The position numbers were made by a program, and so were the translations under genes. 64,000 bases of DNA, from positions 16,492,001 to 16,556,000 of the forward strand of contig OX597814.1 in NCBI GenBank assembly GCA_951406725.2. Reading direction: 5' to 3'. The DNA is from Octopus vulgaris (taxonomy: Eukaryota). This document shows positions 14,280-64,000 of this stretch, piece after piece; the first letter of the stretch is position 1, and the number at the start of each line of letters is the position of its first letter. Below the pieces are notes generated by a model. That model was not told the origin of the DNA, ran no database searches, and saw only the letters and a list, made by a program, of their open reading frames with translations.

Positions 14280-15748
14280 AGACCATAAAAATGGCTGGTG
14301 GTATGAGATGTGAATATATTCGATTACGGCAGTCTCGCATCTTTCTTCTTATAATAGCAAATACAGTGAATAATACATTATGTTTACATGGTCTGCATTA
14401 GTAAGCATGCTACGCATCATGCGATACAATGTGTATGAACAAATCAGTGCAGATAAAGCAAGCTAGCTCTTCAGATCACCAAAACACCACGGTTACACCA
14501 ATGATTCATCTCACACTTGAATTATTGGTGTAACTATGATTTGTAAATATGCAATTGTATTGCGTAATGCGTAGCATATTAGTCCAGAGACATAAACTTA
14601 ATTTGCTATACACATGAAGAAGGCTACAAGATTACCATACTCCGTAGGATAACAAGTGACTTAAATATATTCATCTCTCATACCTCGACGTTTTCAGCTG
14701 CAAGGAACTCTGCTTTATACTCCTCTGCATTGGATTACAGAAAATATGGATTCCTTATGATCCCACATGGTCTCGGTACTCACTGAAATATAAAATGATA
14801 ATAAATTAATAATAATCATACAAAACTCATATATTTTAATGCTAATTTACATACAACCACGCATTGATATACGTGAATATGCATACATATGCATGCAAAC
14901 TCTCGCACAGACACACGCATACACACAGACCACGTATGTATGTATGTATGTATGTATGTATGTATGTATGTATATATGTATGTATGTATGTATGCATGCA
15001 TGTATATCACAATGTAATGCATTTGCTTCGTGTTACATGTTGAGAAATTAGCCTTTTATCTTATAATAAGCCTCTTACGTTATTTTCTTTTATTTTACCT
15101 TTTTCCTGGCATGTTTTAACCAGAATCAATACACAGAAACTCGCATTTTTGCTGGTTATCATTTTCAGAGTTAGACCGCTGTTTGAATTAGCAAAGCACA
15201 TGAAAATATTTTCTCCACAACAGCAAACTCTTGAATCCACTTGAAATCACGTTTGTTACTTCCGGTAAACGAAGATGAGCTTCCGTTAAAGTTAAACAAA
15301 CGTGTCACCGATTATAGTAGCCACTTAGAAACACACACACACACACACACACACTCAAAAATATAATACATATAATAGACAAAAACAAATTGAGTAAAAG
15401 AAAAATATATGAACAATAAACAAACAAAAAAACAAAAAAATAGAAGCAATGCTAACAAAATAACAACGAGAAGAGAGGTATCATTTACTGACGCCAACCG
15501 TCTTGTAATCGTTTATTCAACTAAGCGAGACTGATTACAGATTGAAGCTGAGTCAAATATCCACGAAATATACACTGTTTGTCCCAGAGCCATCGGCAAT
15601 AAACAAAGACCACGCACAATTGAAAAGACTTGTACACCGAATGTTCTCATATGTTTCTTCATTCTACTTTTCTTTTCATTCGTCTTGATCGTCTTCCTCT
15701 TTGTTGCTTTTGTTGTAGTTGTTCCTCTTCTTCTTCTTCTTCTTCTTG

Positions 15749-15782
<34 letters not shown>

Positions 15783-15810
15783 TATTATTATAGTTATTAT
15801 TATTATTATA

Positions 15811-16078
15811 GAGTGAGAGAGCGGTGCATGCCATCGAAGTGACGCCGGGGTAAAATATACGAAGTCCGGTGTACCCATCATGACTACCAGTCTGATAAGA
15901 GAACACTAGGCACAAGCATCACAACCATATGTGCGCGACATGGTGATCTCATATCAAGATAAACAGCACATGACCTTGCAGGTGGGGGCCGGTTAGAATT
16001 TTCTTCTGGTCGAGTAACCCATCCCGCTCAAAAGGTCTCTGAATAAGATTTGTTTAAGGATGTTGAACGAACCACCCA
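15811..16078 (-). mobile_element. 5'-truncated copy of the (AAT)n-tailed element at 62488-63012
   Basis: Reverse complement of roughly 62760-63012, abutting (ATT)n at the same end. Confidence 0.85.
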
Positions 16079-17264: not shown

Positions 17265-17868
17265 TCTTATTTCTTTACTACCAACAAGGGGCTAAACACA
17301 GAGGGGACGAACAAAGACAGACAAACGGATTAAGTCGAATATATCGACCCCGGTACGTAACTGGTACTTATCTAATCGACCTTGAAAATATGAAAGGCAA
17401 AGTGGACCTCGGCGGAATTTGAACTCAGAACGTAACGGAGGACGAAATACCTATTTCTTTACTACCAACAAGGGGCTAAACACAGAGGGGACGAACAAAG
17501 ACAGACAAACGGATTAAGTCGATTATATCGACCCCGGTACGTAACTGGTACTTATTTAATCGACCCTGAAAATATGAAAGGCAAAGTGGACCTCGGCGGA
17601 ATTTGAACTCAGAACGTAACGGAGGACGAAATACCTATTTCTTTACTACCAACAAGGGGCTAAACACAGAGGGGACGAACAAGGACAGACAAACGGATTA
17701 AGTCGATTATATCGACCCCAGGTCATAACTGGTACTTATTTAATCGACCCCGAAAGGATGAAAGGCAAAGTCGACCTCAGCAGAATATGAACTCAGAACG
17801 TAGCGGCAATTGAAATACCGTTAAGTCTTTCGCCTGGTGTGCTAACGTTTCTGCCAGCTCGCCGCCTT
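17265..17868 (-). mobile_element. SINE family S3 with triplicated 184-bp 3' portion
   Basis: TTCTTTACTACCAACAAGGGG recurs at 17271, 17455 and 17639; a single head ends at 17868. Confidence 0.9.
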
Positions 17869-20354: not shown

Positions 20355-20575
20355 TAGCTGACAGAAACGTTAGCACGCCGGGCGAAATGCGTAGCCGTAT
20401 TTCGTCCGCCTCTATGTTCTGAGTTCAAATTTCGCCGAGGTCCACTTTGCCATTCATCCTTTCGGGGTCGATAAATTAAGTACCAGTTACGCACTGGGGT
20501 CGATGTAATCGACTTAATCCGTTTGTTTGTCCTTGTTTGTCCTCTCTGAGTTTAAACCCCAGTGGGTAATAAAAA
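20355..20575 (+). mobile_element. SINE family S3
   Basis: GAAACGTTAGCACGCCGGGCGAAATGCG...GGGGTCGATAAATTAAGTACCAG. Confidence 0.9.
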
Positions 20576-20651
20576 AAAAACAGATATTACTTATTGCTGG
20601 TCAAAATGTTCTTTTGCATCGTCTTAACTTTATACATACACACATACGTAA

Positions 20652-34263: not shown

Positions 34264-34550
34264 ATGATATATATATATATACATACTACATACATACTTA
34301 TATATATATACATATATATATAAAATATGTATGTATGCATGTATGTATATAAATATGGAGGGAAACAAACACAAAGATATATATATATATATATAATAAA
34401 TATAAGAGAGTGGTCACTATATTGATCACTCTAGCACCAGTTAATCCAAAAGGTTTCAACCACGAAAAATACATGTTTCCCATGAAAGCCAGTACGACTG
34501 TTAGTTCACACGGACAGGGCAAATAAAAAATAACAAAAATACAGATTATT

Positions 34551-34626
34551 TTGGGACAATTGTTTCGCTATTAATGAATTAAATGTAATATTACTTACAA
34601 TAATCCATTTGTAGCTCTTCAGCCAA
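34551..34626 (-). ncRNA. Type-I hammerhead ribozyme motif, copy 1
   Basis: Minus strand: helix I UUGG, core CUGAAGA, helix II GCUA...UAGC, GAA, helix III ACAAUUGU (palindrome), C17, helix I CCAA. Predicted GUC cut between 34555 and 34554. Confidence 0.88.
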
Positions 34627-35085
34627 GACTATCTGGATGAAATCCACTTAATCACACGCCAGATTATTACCATAACGATAAATACGCGTGCGGTTCAATT
34701 GATTACATCGGACGTTATAATTCAAATACCCCAACCAACAGCGCGCCAAACTCACACGGAAAACAAATACAGCATTTAGAAATAAATGCAGCATAATTAT
34801 AATTAATTAATAAGGGTGAGATAATTAGATACTAATTTAATAGTATATTTATTCCACACCAAGTGGCCTAGTGCTACGAGAAACCTGGATTATTATAATA
34901 TTTTATAACATATTATAATATTTTCACAAAATAAATATAAGAGAGTGGTCACTATATTGATCACTCTAGCACCAGTTAATCCAAAAGGTTTCAACCACGA
35001 AAAATACATGTTTCCCATGAAAGCCAGTACGACTGTTAGTTCACACGGACAGGGCAAATAAAAAATAACAAAAATACAGATTATT

Positions 35086-35161
35086 TTGGGACAATTGTTT
35101 CGCTATTAATGAATTAAATGTAATATTACTTACAATAATCCATTTGTAGCTCTTCAGCCAA
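35086..35161 (-). ncRNA. Type-I hammerhead ribozyme motif, copy 2
   Basis: Identical to copy 1. Confidence 0.88.
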
Positions 35162-35617
35162 GACTATCTGGATGAAATCCACTCAATCACACGCCAGATT
35201 ATTACCATAACGATAAATACGCGTGCGGTTCAATTGATTACATCGGACGTTATAATTCAAATGCCCCAACCAACAGCGCGCCAAACTCACACGGAAAACA
35301 AATACAGCATTTAGAAATAAATGCAGCATAATTATAATTAATTAATAAGGGTGAGAGAATTAGATACTAATTTAATAGTATATTTATTCCACACCAAGTG
35401 GCCTAGTGCTACGAGAAACCTGGATTATTATAATATTTTATAACATATAATATTTTCACAAAATAAATATAAGAGAGTGGTCACTATATTGATCACTCTA
35501 GCACCAGTTAATCCAAAAGGTTTCAACCACGAAAAATACATGTTTCCCATGAAAGCCAGTACGACTGTTAGTTCACACGGACAGGGCAAATAAAAAATAA
35601 CAAAAATACAGATTATT

Positions 35618-35693
35618 TTGGGACAATTGTTTCGCTATTAATGAATTAAATGTAATATTACTTACAATAATCCATTTGTAGCTCTTCAGCCAA
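35618..35693 (-). ncRNA. Type-I hammerhead ribozyme motif, copy 3
   Basis: Identical to copy 1. Confidence 0.88.
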
Positions 35694-36152
35694 GACTATC
35701 TGGATGAAATCCACTCAATCACACGCCAGATTATTACCATAACGATAAATACGCGTGCGGTTCAATTGATTACATCGGACGTTATAATTCAAATGCCCCA
35801 ACCAACAGCGCGCCAAACTCACACGGAAAACAAATACAGCATTTAGAAATAAATGCAGCATAATTATAATTAATTAATAAGGGTGAGAGAATTAGATACT
35901 AATTTAATAGTATATTTATTCCACACCAAGTGGCCTAGTGCTACGAGAAACCTGGATTATTATAATATTTTATAACATATTATAATATTTTCACAAAATA
36001 AATATAAGAGAGTGGTCACTATATTGATCACTCTAGCACCAGTTAATCCAAAAGGTTTCAACCACGAAAAATACATGTTTCCCATGAAAGCCAGTACGAC
36101 TGTTAGTTCACACGGACAGGGCAAATAAAAAATAACAAAAATACAGATTATT

Positions 36153-36228
36153 TTGGGACAATTGTTTCGCTATTAATGAATTAAATGTAATATTACTTAC
36201 AATAATCCATTTGTAGCTCTTCAGCCAA
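36153..36228 (-). ncRNA. Type-I hammerhead ribozyme motif, copy 4
   Basis: Identical to copy 1. Confidence 0.88.
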
Positions 36229-36687
36229 GACTATCTGGATGAAATCCACTCAATCACACGCCAGATTATTACCATAACGATAAATACGCGTGCGGTTCAA
36301 TTGATTACATCGGACGTTATAATTCAAATACCCCAACCAACAGCGCGCCAAACTCACACGGAAAACAAATACAGCATTTAGAAATAAATGCAGCATAATT
36401 ATAATTAATTAATAAGGGTGAGAGAATTAGATACTAATTTAATAGTATATTTATTCCACACCAAGTGGCCTAGTGCTACGAGAAACCTGGATTATTATAA
36501 TATTTTATAACATATTATAATATTTTCACAAAATAAATATAAGAGAGTGGTCACTATATTGATCACTCTAGCACCAGTTAATCCAAAAGGTTTCAACCAC
36601 GAAAAATACATGTTTCCCATGAAAGCCAGTACGACTGTTAGCTCACACGGACAGGGCAAATAAAAAATAACAAAAATACAGATTATT

Positions 36688-36763
36688 TTGGGACAATTGT
36701 TTCGCTATTAATGAATTAAATGTAATATTACTTACAATAATCCATTTGTAGCTCTTCAGCCAA
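36688..36763 (-). ncRNA. Type-I hammerhead ribozyme motif, copy 5
   Basis: Identical to copy 1. Confidence 0.88.
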
Positions 36764-36820
36764 GACTATCTGGATGAAATCCACTCAATCACACGCCAGA
36801 TTATTACCATAACGATAAAT

Positions 36821-37375
36821 ACCCTTATTAATTAATTATAATTATGCTGCATTTATTTCTAAATGCTGTATTTGTTTTCCGTGTGAGTTTGGCGCGCTGT
36901 TGGTTGGGGCATTTGAATTATAACGTCCGATGTAATCAATTGAACCGCACGCGTATTTATCGTTATGGTAATAATCTGGCGTGTGATTGAGTGGATTTCA
37001 TCCAGATAGTCTTGGCTGAAGAGCTACAAATGGATTATTGTAAGTAATATTACATTTAATTCATTAATAGCGAAACAATTGTCCCAAAATAATCTGTATT
37101 TTTGTTATTTTTTATTTGCCCTGTCCGTGTGAACTAACAGTCGTACTGGCTTTCATGGGAAACATGTATTTTTCGTGGTTGAAACCTTTTGGATTAACTG
37201 GTGCTAGAGTGATCAATATAGTGACCACTCTCTTATATTTATTTTGTGAAAATATTATAATATGTTATAAAATATTATAATAATCCAGGTTTCTCGTAGC
37301 ACTAGGCCACTTGGTGTGGAATAAATATACTATTAAATTAGTATCTAATTCTCTCACCCTTATTAATTAATTATA
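36821..37375 (+). repeat. Inverted copy of one full 535-bp unit plus a 20-bp terminal redundancy
   Basis: Reverse complement of the array unit. ACCCTTATTAATTAATTATA occurs at 36821 and again at 37356, then (TA)n. Confidence 0.97.
37012..37087 (+). ncRNA. Type-I hammerhead ribozyme motif, copy 6 (plus strand)
   Basis: TTGG CTGAAGA GCTA...TAGC GAA ACAATTGT C CCAA; predicted cut after 37083. Confidence 0.88.
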
Positions 37376-37566
37376 TATATATATATATATATATAGGTTA
37401 TGTTACTTATATCAATAAGTGCATTTATGATAGTCTTCGTGGAACTATAATTATTTGTATCTACTAACAACTAGTGTAGCGATACTTTTGAATGTTTGAG
37501 AGAAAATATTACTGCTAAGGGGAGAGCCTTTCTATATATGTATACATACATGCATACATATTTATA

Positions 37567-41842: not shown

Positions 41843-41845
<3 letters not shown>
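41634..41845 (+). mobile_element. Family A short element between (TA)n tracts (motif 41708-41745)
   Basis: TCTTT CTGTTGAA GAGC GTAG GCTC GAAACGTA AAAGA. Confidence 0.75.
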
Positions 41846-41883
<38 letters not shown>

Positions 41884-41892
<9 letters not shown>

Positions 41893-42354
41893 TAAGGGTA
41901 GAAATTGATATTTATCAATTAAGACCAGTGGTCTAGCATATTAAAAAAGAATCCGAAGATTAAAATATTTATATATACCAATTAAGGACTGAACACGAAA
42001 AGTGGACAGTCAACATGCTAGATATAGACGTCAAATCGTCATTCTCCACAAAAGATTATGTTCTCAGATCAAACTCAACACAAAACCATAGCAATAAACA
42101 AGTGAAAAATATACGAAATAAAATAATTACCCATGTACTAACTTAGTTTCAGCTGTTATTTTCCGCAAGGAAAACTGCAGCCATCATCAGCATGGTCCGT
42201 TATAAATGTAATTTGCTGGACTATTGTTTATTGCTATGGTTTTGTGTTGAGTTTGATCTGAGAACATAATCTTTTGTGGAGAATGACGATTTGACGTCTA
42301 TATCTAGCATGTTGACTGTCCACTTTTCGTGTTCAGTCCTTAATTGGTATATAT
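41884..42354. mobile_element. (TA)n-embedded foldback element with 131-bp perfect inverted repeats
   Basis: Arms 41971-42101 and 42224-42354 are reverse complements. The left terminus AATTAATTAAGGGT resembles the array terminus. Confidence 0.9.
42131..42195 (-). ncRNA. Type-I hammerhead ribozyme motif in the foldback loop
   Basis: Minus strand: helix I CCAUG, core CUGAUGA, extra U, helix II GGCUG...CAGCU (with inner UUUUCC/GGAAAA stem), GAA, helix III ACUAA-G-UUAGU, A17, helix I CAUGG. Predicted GUA cut between 42136 and 42135. Confidence 0.8.
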
Positions 42355-42494
42355 ATATATATGAATAAACGGATAAGTTACAGTTTTTCATCATTCTTTT
42401 GCGACATGAAATTGGGATATCAAAATTTGCCTACATGTATACATGTGTATGTTTTGTGTGCGTGTGTGTGAGTGTGTGTGCGCGTGCGTGTGTT

Positions 42495-50109: not shown

Positions 50110-50339
50110 TGTTTCTTTACTAGCCACAATGGGCTAAACATAGAGTGAACAAACAAGGACAGACAAAGGGATTAAGTCAATTACATCGACCCCAGTGCGT
50201 AACTGGTACTTAATTTATCGACCCCGAAAGGATGAAAGGCAAAGTCGACCTCGGCGGAATTTGAACTCAGAACGTAACGGCAGACGAAATACGGCTACGC
50301 ATTTCACCCGGCGTGCTAACGTTTCTGCCAGCTCACCGC
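50110..50339 (-). mobile_element. Young S3 SINE nested in an older plus-strand S3 copy
   Basis: Flanked by direct repeat GCGATGTAACC at 50099-50109 and 50338-50348. Confidence 0.85.
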
Positions 50340-59698: not shown

Positions 59699-60121
59699 CG
59701 TTTATACATACATATATACATACATACATACATACGTACATTCATGTCACGTATGTGGCCTTCTTTTGTCAGTCAACTTAGCAGATATCCTTACAGTTTC
59801 GAGCAGTTACACTTGAGACCGTTCGAGTTGCTTGCCCTCAACGCAATAAATGTCTAAGCATTAGATTTTTTGCAAGAACAGTAGCGAATGTGTGCGACAA
59901 CAACAAAGAACAGGGAACATGATACATATTTATAAATACAAACAACACCTTATAGTAAGTATGTATATACATATCACCTCCACGCACACATATAGATATA
60001 TATATTTATATACATATATATATACATAAACAAATATCTCTCCTTCTCTCTCTTTCTCTCTCTCTCTATATATATATATATATACATACACACACACATA
60101 TATATATATACATATACATAC

Positions 60122-60159
<38 letters not shown>

Positions 60160-60194
60160 ATACACGTTACAACTTTCATAATTTTGTTGCGTTT

Positions 60195-60560
60195 CTTTTA
60201 GTCATATATGGGGTACCATATCCCACTCTAGCAAAGAGTTATTATTGTTGGAGATATATCCGGGACTAGGAGGTTGGTCTAGGATGTGTTGAAGAAATTT
60301 ATCCATGTGAACATTTGAATTTTATGAGATCCGTTTCCGTTTCGACGTATTTTGTTTGAGGTAAAGTAGTTGTGACATAATGCTGTTATGTGTCCTGGGT
60401 TTGATTTTTATAGTGGGCGGATAGGACGGGGGCCAAGTCTTGGATAGATTTTAAAATAGATGCCACTCTCATTTGTGTAATATTGAGGGAATATTTTGGT
60501 AATAAACATCAAATACCGTCATCTTATTTTTTTTAAATTCGCTCAATTTCTTTGAAACAA
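60195..60560 (-). pseudogene. 3' end of a CR1/L2-group LINE ORF2 (degenerate)
   Basis: Minus strand TDLIKFK...MDKFLQHILDQPPSPGYISNNNNSLLEW resembles the FK..LDKFL..IPDQP..PGY...NSL C-terminus of CR1-group ORF2. Confidence 0.6.
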
Positions 60561-60629
60561 TTAATTCTTGAAATACCCTGCATGGTGTAGCATTGTTAGT
60601 TGTTGCGTTGCTTGTGTAAATATTAAAAT

Positions 60630-61135
60630 CAAAGTTCTTCTCGCGCCGCCAACCCCACGCAAAGAGCGAGAAGCAGAATCGGCCGCCGCCAGTCGGAGAG
60701 CGCTCGGCACATGCAGCCTGCGGTATCGACGAGCCGACGTCGTCCACAGAGGCCAGGCGGAGGTTGCACGCTGAGCCAAAAGGGACGTAGTGTCGAGGTT
60801 GGGGATCGGCGGCGAGGAAAACGAAAGAAGAAATACCCGCAACCGAGCATGGAAGGCGGATCAGCAACAGCGTCGGCCGTCGAGCTTCCGAAGCGAGCGC
60901 GAGAGTGTGCGGGGAGAGGATCGTGAGGGACAGGCCATGAAGAGCACGTCGTCGTCGTCGTTAGGCAGGAAGTCTGAGGAGGCGAAGCGGCGCGGTCCCC
61001 GCTGCGTGAGCGAAATCGTGTAGGCGCACGACAGCGACGACGGCTGGATGCAGGCGACAAAGAAACCGAACGTTCGGGGGGTGAGAGGACGAAATTCCCC
61101 AGAAAATGTGTTTCCACCTCCTACATCCTCAAGCT
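60630..61135. other. GC/CpG-rich island of unknown origin (possible LINE ORF1 remnant)
   Basis: Abrupt GC and CpG enrichment; charged low-complexity frames with a DDGWMQATKK motif; no recognisable domain. Confidence 0.4.
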
Positions 61136-61164
61136 TTCCTTCACCTTCTATACGAGTATCTGAA

Positions 61165-61969
61165 AGTGCAGATACTGTAGATGACTAAAACTGATTTAAA
61201 ACCGGAAACAGAGGCTTGCCCAAAAGCAAGCACTAAGAACAAACTACATAAAATAGAAAATAAACAACACATCAGAAAGTGATAAGTGCAGATTCTATTG
61301 ACAAAATGGTGAAACCGTATGGCATATTGCCAGGGTATGTACGCCAATAGCTCAGAAGGAATATAAGAGACGCCACGACAATCTAGCAAGGATTGTCCAT
61401 TGGATGCTCTGCATCAAGTATGGAATTGACAGAGCAAAAAATTTGGTACGACCACAAACCCGATAGCATCGTCGCAAATGATAATGTAATGATCCAATGG
61501 GACTTTATGATTCAGTGCGACCATGAGATTGAGAATATGAAACCAGACATAATCTTAATTGAGTAAGAAAAATAAACTATGCTTTTTGTTAATTGAGAAA
61601 GAAAGCAAACGATGCTGGATCATAGATATAGCATGTCCAGCTGACAACGAGGTATGCGATAAGGAAGAAAGAAAAGTCGACAGATATGACAGGTTAGCTT
61701 GGGAGGTTAAGCAGTTGTGGCTGACGAAAAAGGTGGTAGTAGTTGCAATAACTGTTGGAGACCTGAGAATATCGAGTAAAAATCTTGAGAAGTACATGGA
61801 AGAAAAACGAGTTGCAATAACGGTGGAGCACTTGCAAAAAACAGCACTGTTTGGAACCGCTCGAATACTCCGGAAGGTGGTCGAAAAATAAGAGGTGTTA
61901 CCTTAGTTCACTGGTAGGGAACAGCTGATACTGCAATACATCTCCAACTTTAGAAGAGCTGTGCAGAGA

Positions 61970-61970
<1 letters not shown>
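61165..61970 (+). mobile_element. 3' part of an R4/Dong-clade non-LTR retrotransposon (zinc knuckle plus restriction-like endonuclease), pseudogenised
   Basis: DLKPETEA, QALRTNYIK, DKCRF..ETVWHIARVC, EYKRRHD, WDFMIQCD..KPDII, IIDIACP, K..RY..L, LQKTALFGTARILRKV*; short 3' UTR, then (AAT)n. Confidence 0.88.
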
Positions 61971-62046
<76 letters not shown>

Positions 62047-62487: not shown

Positions 62488-63012
62488 ATGTCCTGGTGCA
62501 GTACCAGGCAGTGGCTCTCGTGGCTTCTGGTCTTAACTGATTGGAAGTGTTATCATGTATATCGTTTTGTCTTGGTATAAAAGACGGCTACAGCAAATAC
62601 CACAGATTTGCTTGTCAGTTATTTGACCTTAACCAGTTGAGCATGTCGCTTAGTGACTGACGATAAGTGTATCTCTGACCATGAGCAGAAGTAGTGGGGG
62701 AGCATCATATCTGTGTGTTGAAAGGGATTCTTAGAGGTTTGGATAATTCACCTTTGGGAACATCCTCAAACAATCCTTACTCAGGGACCTTTTGAACGGG
62801 ATGTGCTACTCGACCAAAAGAAAATTCTAACTGGGCCCCACCTGCAAGGCCATGCGCTGTTTATCTTGATATGAGATCACCATGTCGTGCACATATGGTT
62901 GTGATGCATGTGCCTAGTGTACCCTTATCAGACGGGTAGTCATGATGGGTATACTGGGTTTCGTATATTTTAACCCCGAGTCACTTTGATGGCATGCACT
63001 GCTCTCTCACTC
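62488..63012 (+). mobile_element. Non-coding element of about 525 bp between (AAT)n tracts (SINE or LINE 3' UTR)
   Basis: Second copy at 15811-16078 with the same (AAT)n-abutting end; 12-bp stem-loop at 62913-62958. Confidence 0.75.
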
Positions 63013-63049
63013 AATAATAATAATATCAATAATAATAATAATAATAATG

Positions 63050-63176
<127 letters not shown>

Positions 63177-64000
63177 GACAATCAACGCTACTGAGCAACA
63201 AAAAGAAAACAAAAATACTCCGCAAATATAACATCACAGAAAAAGATTCACCTGAGATAAAAGAAAATCTGAAGCAAGATATCCTTGCCAAAGCACAAAG
63301 GATCCGCCGGTACGAGAAACGCCAGCGCTTCTTTGAACAAAATAAAAAGTTCAACTCCAACCCCAAAAGTTCTACCAAGAACTTGGCAAAAATAAAATAG
63401 AAATCACTGCAGCACCAACGGCAGAAGAAGTGGAAGAATTCTGGAGAGAAATATGGTCGGCGAACGAACAACCAAAAAAAAAGAGTATTAAAACAACAAA
63501 CTCAGCATCTGACCAACTTTGGACCCCCATAACAACTGAAGAGGTTACCCAGGCACTGCAAAGACTAAGCAACTGGAAGGCACCTGGGCATGACAAGATC
63601 CCCAACTTCTGGTTGAAATATCTAACAGGAATGCACAAAAAGCTGGCTGAAAACTTTAACAACATACTAGCAGAGCCAGAGACAATGCCTGAATGGCTCA
63701 CGAAGGTGAAAACCATCTTAATTCCCAAATCAAATGAGACAGCAAAACCAGAAAACTACAGACCAATAACCTGTCTCCCTACAATGTACAAGGCATTTAC
63801 TGCAGTGATATCGCAAAGGTTGAACAAGCACCTGGACGAAAACAACCTGTTTCCAGAAGAGCAGAATGGATGCAGCAAACGCTCATATGGCTGTAAAGAT
63901 CAACTAATGATTAATAAAGCCATAACTGAAGACAGCCACAGAAAGAAGAAAGGCCTCAGTATGGCCTGAATCGACTACAAAAAGGCGTTTGATGGCATCC
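63177..64000 (+). pseudogene. 5'-truncated R4/Dong-clade reverse transcriptase, running off the window
   Basis: NWKAPGHDKIPNFWLK, PEWLTK..TILIPK, NYRPITCLPTMYK, EEQNG, GCKDQL, MA*IDYKKAFD. Frameshift near 63370 and TGA at 63967-63969. Begins directly after (AAT)n. Confidence 0.92.

What the first reader, a model, noticed from the sequence alone, without database searches (positions are those of the whole stretch)
41884..42354. Second, different hammerhead ribozyme in the loop of a perfect 131-bp foldback
Seen: perfect inverted arms 41971-42101 and 42224-42354 flanked by (TA)n. The loop encodes, on the minus strand, CCAUG-CUGAUGA-U-GGCUG...CAGCU-GAA-ACUAAGUUAGU-A-CAUGG (42131-42195) with a GUA site and near-palindromic helix III. 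All helices differ in sequence from the array ribozyme yet still pair. The layout is the same as the array: (TA)n, TAAGGGT terminus, antisense hammerhead, inversion, (TA)n. Inference: an independent subfamily of the same system, which supports selection on ribozyme structure.
Basis: partly seen in the sequence, partly recalled or inferred. Interest (0 to 1): 0.78.

Follow-up and report, generated by a model that had tools for sequence, protein, structure and literature searches.

The report
Truncated ribozyme-bearing Penelope-type mobile repeat
This is one broken copy of a young 505-base repeat, present in hundreds of copies in this animal genome, that carries a predicted self-cutting RNA and was likely pasted in by Penelope-like jumping-gene enzymes; across copies, two-armed insertions almost always end once at each of two fixed sites and each array is uniform, which likely records copying from one circular RNA.

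Summary
The foldback and the hammerhead motif are real. The locus is an exact fragment of a young 505-bp non-coding unit: 387 hammerhead-pattern matches genome-wide against 4 for the control, mostly as tandem arrays in (TA)n. It fits a non-LTR retrozyme, a non-autonomous Penelope-like (PLE) derivative.

The foldback is an insertion by-product: two 5'-truncated arms joined head to head. This copy has one ribozyme and is probably dead. Structure is under selection: against a homologous 508-bp family, 13 substitutions keep 19 of 19 pairs (p about 3e-5) and the core is invariant. The 535-bp array in the window is a collinear relative, not an independent origin.

Two family-level regularities are new to my searches. 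Two-armed insertions end once at site A and once at site B, 90 nt apart (48 of 49 typed; 34 of 34 in a second sample). Arrays are single-haplotype (19 haplotypes in 29 arrays; 1 mixed of 171 site checks). This points to two-site priming on one re-copied, likely circular, monomer.

Not shown: cleavage, circles, the autonomous partner. No Rfam hammerhead hit. The scan noted similar PLE-type repeats in other genomes (unchecked notes).

The parts
41843..41885 (.). (TA)n target, left flank; a target-site duplication cannot be read in it
41886..42223 (-). Arm 1: unit positions 168-505, 5'-truncated, ends at site A
   Evidence: identical to the reference unit, 338 of 338 nt
41886..41975 (-). 90-nt 'tail' between site B and site A (unit 416-505), with the CTAGRCCACT motif (41936-41928) and the ACCCTTAWTWAWT end shared with the 535-bp family
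   Evidence: (3539 matches, control 0)
42131..42195 (-). Type I hammerhead: 5-bp stem I, CUGAUGA core, extra U, stem II with internal loop, GAAA, near-palindromic helix III, GUA site; predicted cut between 42136 and 42135
   Evidence: activity not tested
42125..42213 (-). Predicted extension of stem I (42213-42208 with 42130-42125) across a 12-nt bulge
   Evidence: fold; helix 1 (92% of cells paired, no double change)
42223..42224 (.). Head-to-head inversion junction, blunt, no microhomology, no filler
   Evidence: (row L001)
42224..42349 (+). Arm 2: unit positions 290-415, no ribozyme, ends at site B
   Evidence: identical to the reference unit, 126 of 126 nt
42350..42362 (.). (TA)n target, right flank
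34383..37380 (.). Separate insertion of the sister 535-bp family (about 4.6 units plus an inverted arm; one B end, one A end)

Best explanation
The locus is a two-armed, 5'-truncated copy of a 505-bp non-coding repeat with a predicted type I hammerhead ribozyme, likely inserted into (TA)n by the enzymes of an autonomous Penelope-like element working from a single, probably circular, RNA monomer. Shown: family membership, fixed ends A and B, (TA)n flanks, one A end plus one B end per two-armed insertion, single-haplotype arrays, compensatory changes. Inferred steps: (1) tandem arrays are transcribed and neighbouring hammerheads cut, probably as dimers through the palindromic helix III; (2) monomers are ligated to circles; (3) a PLE RT/GIY-YIG complex nicks both strands of (TA)n and primes once at A and once at B on the same RNA; (4) RT can lap the circle, giving arrays of variable length; (5) the two 5'-truncated products are joined head to head, often where both stop at the same template position. 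The foldback here is the overlap of the two arms. With one ribozyme this copy could not release a monomer.
For: Family: 288 matches from 38 of 1254 candidates scored; 387 vs 4; 740 exact B-end pattern matches vs 0. Ends: of 76 loci, 55 are two-armed: 48 A+B, 0 B+B, 1 doubtful A+A (L166, not followed by TA), 6 undetermined. In the subset picked only by the ribozyme pattern (40 loci, 29 two-armed), 25 of 25 typed are A+B (hand count). Single arms use both sites, 10 A and 11 B. A second, B-anchored sample of 40 loci: 34 two-armed, all A+B (31 by script, 3 by eye), 6 single. Same pattern in 7 of 7 535-family insertions, 6 of 6 sister-family loci and 3 of 3 inverted copies of the Neptune-type PLE family (L073, L096, L103). 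One template: at four diagnostic sites arrays are all-variant 60 times, no-variant 110 times, mixed once; 19 haplotypes in 29 arrays; 11 locus-private variants fixed in all units, 8 of them across both arms, beside 81 private singletons. RT reads through the cut site: 0 of 96 arm 5' ends at unit 254-258; 156 junctions matching a loose pattern all have one length. 16 of 48 insertions exceed one unit in both arms; 8 of 48 cannot be a foldback copy of one arm. Structure; circular monomer folds at z -8.4 against 60 shuffles. PLE hallmarks as described in PMC8557442, PMC3846280, PMC11167929; circle model as proposed in PMC4209133 and PMC7229834.
Against: No cleavage, circle or transcript was shown. 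The ribozyme fold is 3.6 kcal/mol less stable than an inactive fold in which the core pairs with helix III, and position 10.1-11.1 is G-U, not G-C. Rfam does not call it. In a preprint only 1 of 9 predicted frog retrozyme dimers cleaved (10.64898/2026.07.22.740005), and the ribozyme was dispensable for anole PLE priming in vitro (PMC11167929). No partner found: no nucleotide match beyond chance neighbours in 70 GIY-YIG stretches, and the end of the intact Neptune-type family is not significantly similar (p 0.28). The tail is 90 nt, not 30-40. The two arms' 5' ends coincide within 15 nt in 14 of 48 and 18 of 31 insertions, which self-primed foldback explains equally well. 9 private variants are in some but not all units, so local duplication also occurs. 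Covariation rests mainly on one family pair.
Confidence: 0.62

Rival explanations
1. Same PLE-mobilised element, but no covalent circle: RT re-copies one linear, terminally redundant RNA by homology-guided strand transfer, and the ribozyme only trims transcripts or is a passenger.
For: Gives uniform arrays and read-through of the cut site equally well. Unprocessed RNA was the dominant substrate in vitro (PMC11167929). Non-autonomous Chlamys elements make head-to-tail multicopy insertions although most Chlamys lack canonical hammerheads (PMC8557442 passages). Two unchecked scan notes describe ribozyme-free PLE-type tandem units.
Against: The ribozyme is kept under structural selection across families, circles are shown for other animal retrozymes (PMC7229834), and the unit folds far better than chance as a circle.
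Confidence: 0.2
2. Only one arm is primed on the target; the second arm is made when the cDNA folds back and copies itself, and is then resolved at the other AT-rich site.
For: Coincident 5' ends and palindromic junctions are common (14 of 48, permutation mean 4.0; 18 of 31, mean 6.7). Self-priming was proposed for PLE palindromic junctions (PMC3846280), and the tail was ascribed to endonuclease resolution (PMC8557442).
Against: In 8 of 48 insertions neither arm contains the other. It does not predict strict A+B alternation. The junction in this window is blunt with a 122-nt loop. It may still hold for part of the copies.
Confidence: 0.12
3. The unit is a solo PLE pseudo-LTR fragment whose arrays grew in place by unequal crossing-over (the route favoured in the 2026 preprint), and the foldback is a later DNA rearrangement.
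For: Some partial-array variants and a tandem triplication of a whole inverted insertion in L099 show that local amplification happens.
Against: Dispersed young arrays with the same two ends, both arms multimeric in 16 of 48 insertions, variants fixed across the inversion, and no autonomous element sharing the sequence found.
Confidence: 0.05
4. The hammerhead is a chance motif in a satellite or fold-back DNA element.
For: No Rfam hit; the minimum-energy fold is not the hammerhead.
Against: Core 0 of 11 positions changed and 19 of 19 pairs kept with 13 substitutions; different helices that still pair in further homologous families.
Confidence: 0.01

Closest known systems
Animal non-LTR retrozymes (Cervera and de la Pena 2020, PMC7229834; Li, Clavereau and Pollet 2026 preprint 10.64898/2026.07.22.740005)
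   Same: Non-coding, AT-rich tandem units with one type I hammerhead each, dispersed arrays, stable predicted circular fold, coexisting with intact PLEs.
   Different: Unit 505 bp (above the 150-450 of the 2020 paper, inside the 51-972 of the preprint). Fixed A/B ends, (TA)n targeting and head-to-head arms are not described for retrozymes in the text I read. No homology to a PLE pLTR was found here, whereas 24 of 57 frog families matched known elements, nearly all PLEs. Expression and cleavage are untested here.
EN+ Penelope-like element insertions, Neptune/Naiad type (PMC8557442, PMC3846280, PMC11167929)
   Same: 5' truncation, partial tandems, inverted 5'-truncated copy, tail at one end only, two initiation sites, (TA)n targets, palindromic junctions.
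   Different: No ORF; tail of 90 nt rather than 30-40; both start sites are followed by TA-rich RNA that could pair with the target, whereas anole PLE priming was non-homologous; many laps of a short unit.
PLE-type hammerheads (Cervera and de la Pena 2014, PMC4209133)
   Same: [quoted passage not shown]
   Different: G-U instead of the conserved G10.1-C11.1; helix III is longer than the minimal motif; helix II has an internal loop.
L1 twin priming (recalled, no call)
   Same: Both target strands prime on one RNA and give a 5' inversion.
   Different: Here the second site is fixed, the arms overlap in sequence and both can be multimeric.

Membership tests
Type I hammerhead ribozyme | Conserved core CUGANGA, GAAA, UH in a three-way junction closed by helix I | tested here: met
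   core 0 of 11 positions differ between families
Type I hammerhead ribozyme | Helices I-III supported by compensatory change | tested here: met
   6 pairs with change on both sides, none in slid controls beyond 2; 19 of 19 pairs kept, 13 of 500000 random placements; 5 sequences, mainly one family pair
Type I hammerhead ribozyme | G10.1-C11.1 pair | tested here: not met
   G-U with an extra U in this family; U-U, A-U and G-C in relatives
Type I hammerhead ribozyme | Match to an Rfam hammerhead model | tested here: not met
   none of 7 related loci matched either
Type I hammerhead ribozyme | Self-cleavage at the UH site; loop I-II tertiary contact | not testable with these tools
   needs an assay; an inactive fold is predicted 3.6 kcal/mol more stable
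Non-LTR retrozyme | Tandem units each with a type I hammerhead, at dispersed loci | tested here: met
   met for the family; this copy has one ribozyme and fails the preprint's 'active' criterion of two
Non-LTR retrozyme | Non-coding | tested here: met
   no open frame of 130 aa or more listed over the locus (low-complexity frames were filtered out)
Non-LTR retrozyme | No PBS or PPT; target-site duplication larger than 4 bp | not tested
   a duplication cannot be read inside (TA)n; PBS and PPT were not searched
Non-LTR retrozyme | Expressed as linear and circular monomers | not testable with these tools
   only contigs of runs of guessed kind were available
PLE-mediated insertion | 5' truncation, partial tandems, inverted 5'-truncated copy, (TA)n target | tested here: met
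PLE-mediated insertion | Tail present at one end only | tested here: met
   48 of 49 typed and 34 of 34 two-armed insertions
PLE-mediated insertion | Tail 30-40 bp long | tested here: not met
   90 nt here; 32 nt in the genome's intact Neptune-type family
Autonomous PLE or its pLTR | RT and GIY-YIG ORF, or sequence shared with the pLTR of such an element | tested here: not met
   none in 70 GIY-YIG stretches; only 150 of 6136 candidates were scored, so a partner may be missed

The most novel reading that the evidence does not exclude
These families record the PLE insertion reaction on a ribozyme-made circle: a two-headed RT/endonuclease complex nicks both strands of (TA)n and starts two cDNAs at two fixed sites 90 nt apart on one circular RNA, lapping it and joining the products. 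This would be genomic evidence for rolling-circle reverse transcription of animal retrozymes and would explain the PLE tail and inverted arm as one concerted event.
Probability: 0.35. Interest if true: 0.72.

Novelty: new member of a known kind. Interest (0 to 1): 0.46.

Why it matters
The element itself is a new family of a described class. Its value is as a test system. How PLEs make tandem and inverted insertions, and whether retrozymes move through circles, are stated as open in the papers read. A young 505-nt family with hundreds of copies, two fixed ends, scorable haplotypes and an intact TA-targeting PLE in the same genome makes both questions testable by census and in vitro.

Tried and rejected
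Rfam: no hammerhead match; only microsatellite-driven microRNA hits among the 150 of 494 rows shown.

Expression: no RNA holder listed on record. Contigs of 4 of 24 runs were laid; they cannot show starts, ends or level, so they are no evidence either way. They show that three other coded organisms hold the sequence or parts of it.

Partner search: GIY-YIG scan and 70 stretches read; no shared sequence. End similarity to the 781-aa family was not significant (p 0.28 and 0.54).

Enrichment of 5' ends at the cut site: none, 3 of 96 within 250-262.

Two apparent B+B loci proved to be B+A (L231, L232). The A-end count (35) is not usable because the pattern had the wrong spacing. The 'odd' label came from a wrong length in my filter; all 156 printed junctions have the same length, and junctions with deletions would not have matched. 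My strict descriptor missed this family itself (1-nt loop III), so it is not a census. My note of 11 A and 10 B single arms was a miscount: 10 A and 11 B, and one of the latter (L042) is a two-armed old copy whose other arm fell under the 75% filter.

A-arm 5' ends near site B (8 of 79 within 405-425, hand count) are too weak a hint to use. No scan notes exist for this genome or sequence.

Full report
Observation. The minus strand gives a 5-bp stem I, CUGAUGA, an extra U, a stem II with an internal loop, GAAA, a near-palindromic helix III and a GUA site. Rfam does not recognise it. The left (TA)n does not abut the left arm: 90 unpaired bases lie between them.

What it belongs to. The window lies in a 2.8-Gb genome (G000). 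The locus matches many places at 98-100% (288 matches from 38 of 1254 candidates scored). Those places are tandem arrays of a 505-bp unit. The ribozyme pattern occurs 387 times against 4 for the control. Using one genomic unit from L025 as reference, the window copy is exactly unit 168-505 on the minus strand joined bluntly to unit 290-415 on the plus strand. The foldback is the part that the two arms share.

Architecture across copies. I mapped 76 loci. Every typed arm reads 5'->3' on the ribozyme strand towards its outer end, as a rule (TA)n, and stops at one of two sites: B (unit 415) or A (unit 505). Of 55 two-armed loci, 48 are A+B, none B+B, one a doubtful A+A and six undetermined. These loci came from three searches with different bias; in the 40 picked only by the ribozyme pattern, 25 of 25 typed two-armed loci are A+B (hand count; the window's own locus is one of them). 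Single arms use A 10 times and B 11 times, so both sites work alone. A second sample, 38 consecutive B-anchored loci not held before plus two picked as B+B candidates, gave 34 two-armed loci, all A+B, and 6 single arms; this sample can only test B+B. The same holds for 7 of 7 insertions of the 535-bp family, 6 of 6 of two closer sister families and 3 of 3 inverted copies of the Neptune-type PLE family. The literature describes this qualitatively as a tail at one end of inverted PLE insertions (PMC8557442, PMC3846280) and ties the tail to two RT start sites (PMC11167929). I found no count of the rule, nor a report of it for retrozymes, in eight full-text searches; subscription papers and unseen supplements may hold one.

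Template. Arrays are uniform. At four diagnostic sites, loci covering the site at least twice are all-variant 60 times, no-variant 110 times and mixed once; 29 multi-unit arrays carry 19 haplotypes. Eleven locus-private variants are fixed in all units, eight across both arms, while 81 private variants sit in a single unit and 9 in some units. The singletons argue against homogenisation by assembly or conversion. Each insertion therefore likely passed through one monomer. RT does not stop at the cut site (0 of 96 arm ends at 254-258), and 156 junctions across it have one length. A ligated circle is the simplest template, as hypothesised in PMC4209133 and PMC7229834. Strand transfer on a terminally redundant linear RNA is not excluded.

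Junctions. The two 5' ends coincide within 15 nt in 14 of 48 (permutation mean 4.0; 10 of 43 without the long overlaps, p 0.0014) and 18 of 31 (mean 6.7) insertions. This fits self-primed foldback, or two cDNAs stopping at one template position. In 8 of 48 neither arm contains the other, which foldback cannot give. In 16 of 48 both arms exceed one unit.

Selection on the ribozyme. A looser pattern found further families (329 matches vs 1). The 508-bp family (L182, L184) is 78-90% identical in the flanks. Against it, 13 of 38 paired positions differ and all 19 pairs are kept (13 of 500000 random placements); 0 of 11 core positions differ; 16 of 58 other columns differ. Six pairs change on both sides, in all three helices. 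The structure was drawn on these sequences and the signal comes mainly from one family pair. A more distant family (L183 type, 70-73% in the tail) has other helices that also pair. The 535-bp array family is collinear with the 505-bp unit and shares the tail motif (3539 matches vs 0), so the two ribozymes in the window are diverged relatives. The active fold is predicted 3.6 kcal/mol above an inactive one, while two helix III palindromes co-fold at -10.6 kcal/mol. Dimer-dependent, modest activity is therefore likely, as for other PLE-type hammerheads (PMC4209133).

Partner. The genome holds many intact 781-aa RT plus GIY-YIG frames. I call them Neptune-type from the cysteine linker described in PMC8557442; no tree was built. 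They insert in (TA)n, have two ends 32 nt apart and a U3-A8 hammerhead-like core on the ORF strand. They are the obvious candidate, but share no significant sequence with the unit, and only 150 of 6136 candidates were scored.

What I read. 10.64898/2026.07.22.740005: parts 1-3 of 5, main text, supplements not seen. PMC11167929: parts 1-3 of 4, supplement list only. PMC7229834: parts 2-4 of 6. PMC4209133: parts 1-2 of 4. PMC8557442 and PMC3846280: passages. L1 twin priming is recalled.

Verdict. Real; a new family of non-LTR retrozyme with PLE-type insertions. This copy is an ordinary, probably dead fragment and its hairpin is a by-product. The interest lies in the family statistics, which sharpen two open mechanistic questions. 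Cleavage, circles and partner remain inferred.

Noticed in passing
L094:768-4471 and L091-L096, L108, L109: Intact TA-targeting Neptune-type PLE family: 781-aa RT plus GIY-YIG frame preceded by an overlapping 479-aa frame with no convincing Pfam match, a hammerhead-like motif with a U3-A8 core, and two alternative ends 32 nt apart. An upstream ORF is unusual for canonical single-ORF PLEs.
   Followed up: partly
L102 and L110, about 500 nt downstream of the ORF; L064: Second PLE family whose 3' region has a hammerhead-like motif with a U4-to-C core change in some copies and a U-U mismatch at the base of stem II (read by eye).
   Followed up: no
L064/L107, L068, L072/L092, L173, L181, L187, L201, L206: Many further type I hammerhead-like motifs with palindromic helix III, apparently of other families.
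   Followed up: no
L099:1-1846: A 594-bp period made of a whole inverted insertion of a relative (mosaic in similarity to the 505- and 535-bp units) repeated about three times: local amplification of a truncated copy.
   Followed up: partly
L058, L162: Two insertions whose B end is followed by (CAT)n and the same following letters rather than long (TA)n, probably the head of another repeat.
   Followed up: no
window 17268-17806: 184-bp tandem repeat, 2.9 copies, 95% match, of a dispersed repeat also seen at 20356-20577 and 50112-50333.
   Followed up: no
window 63346-63966 and 15710-16064 / 62759-63113: A 207-aa open frame that looks by recall like the start of a LINE reverse transcriptase region, next to a 355-bp repeat with an 84% inverted copy elsewhere in the window.
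   Followed up: no
window 60400-61200: GC-richer stretch (42% over 60001-62000) with several open frames on the minus strand; possibly a gene start.
   Followed up: no
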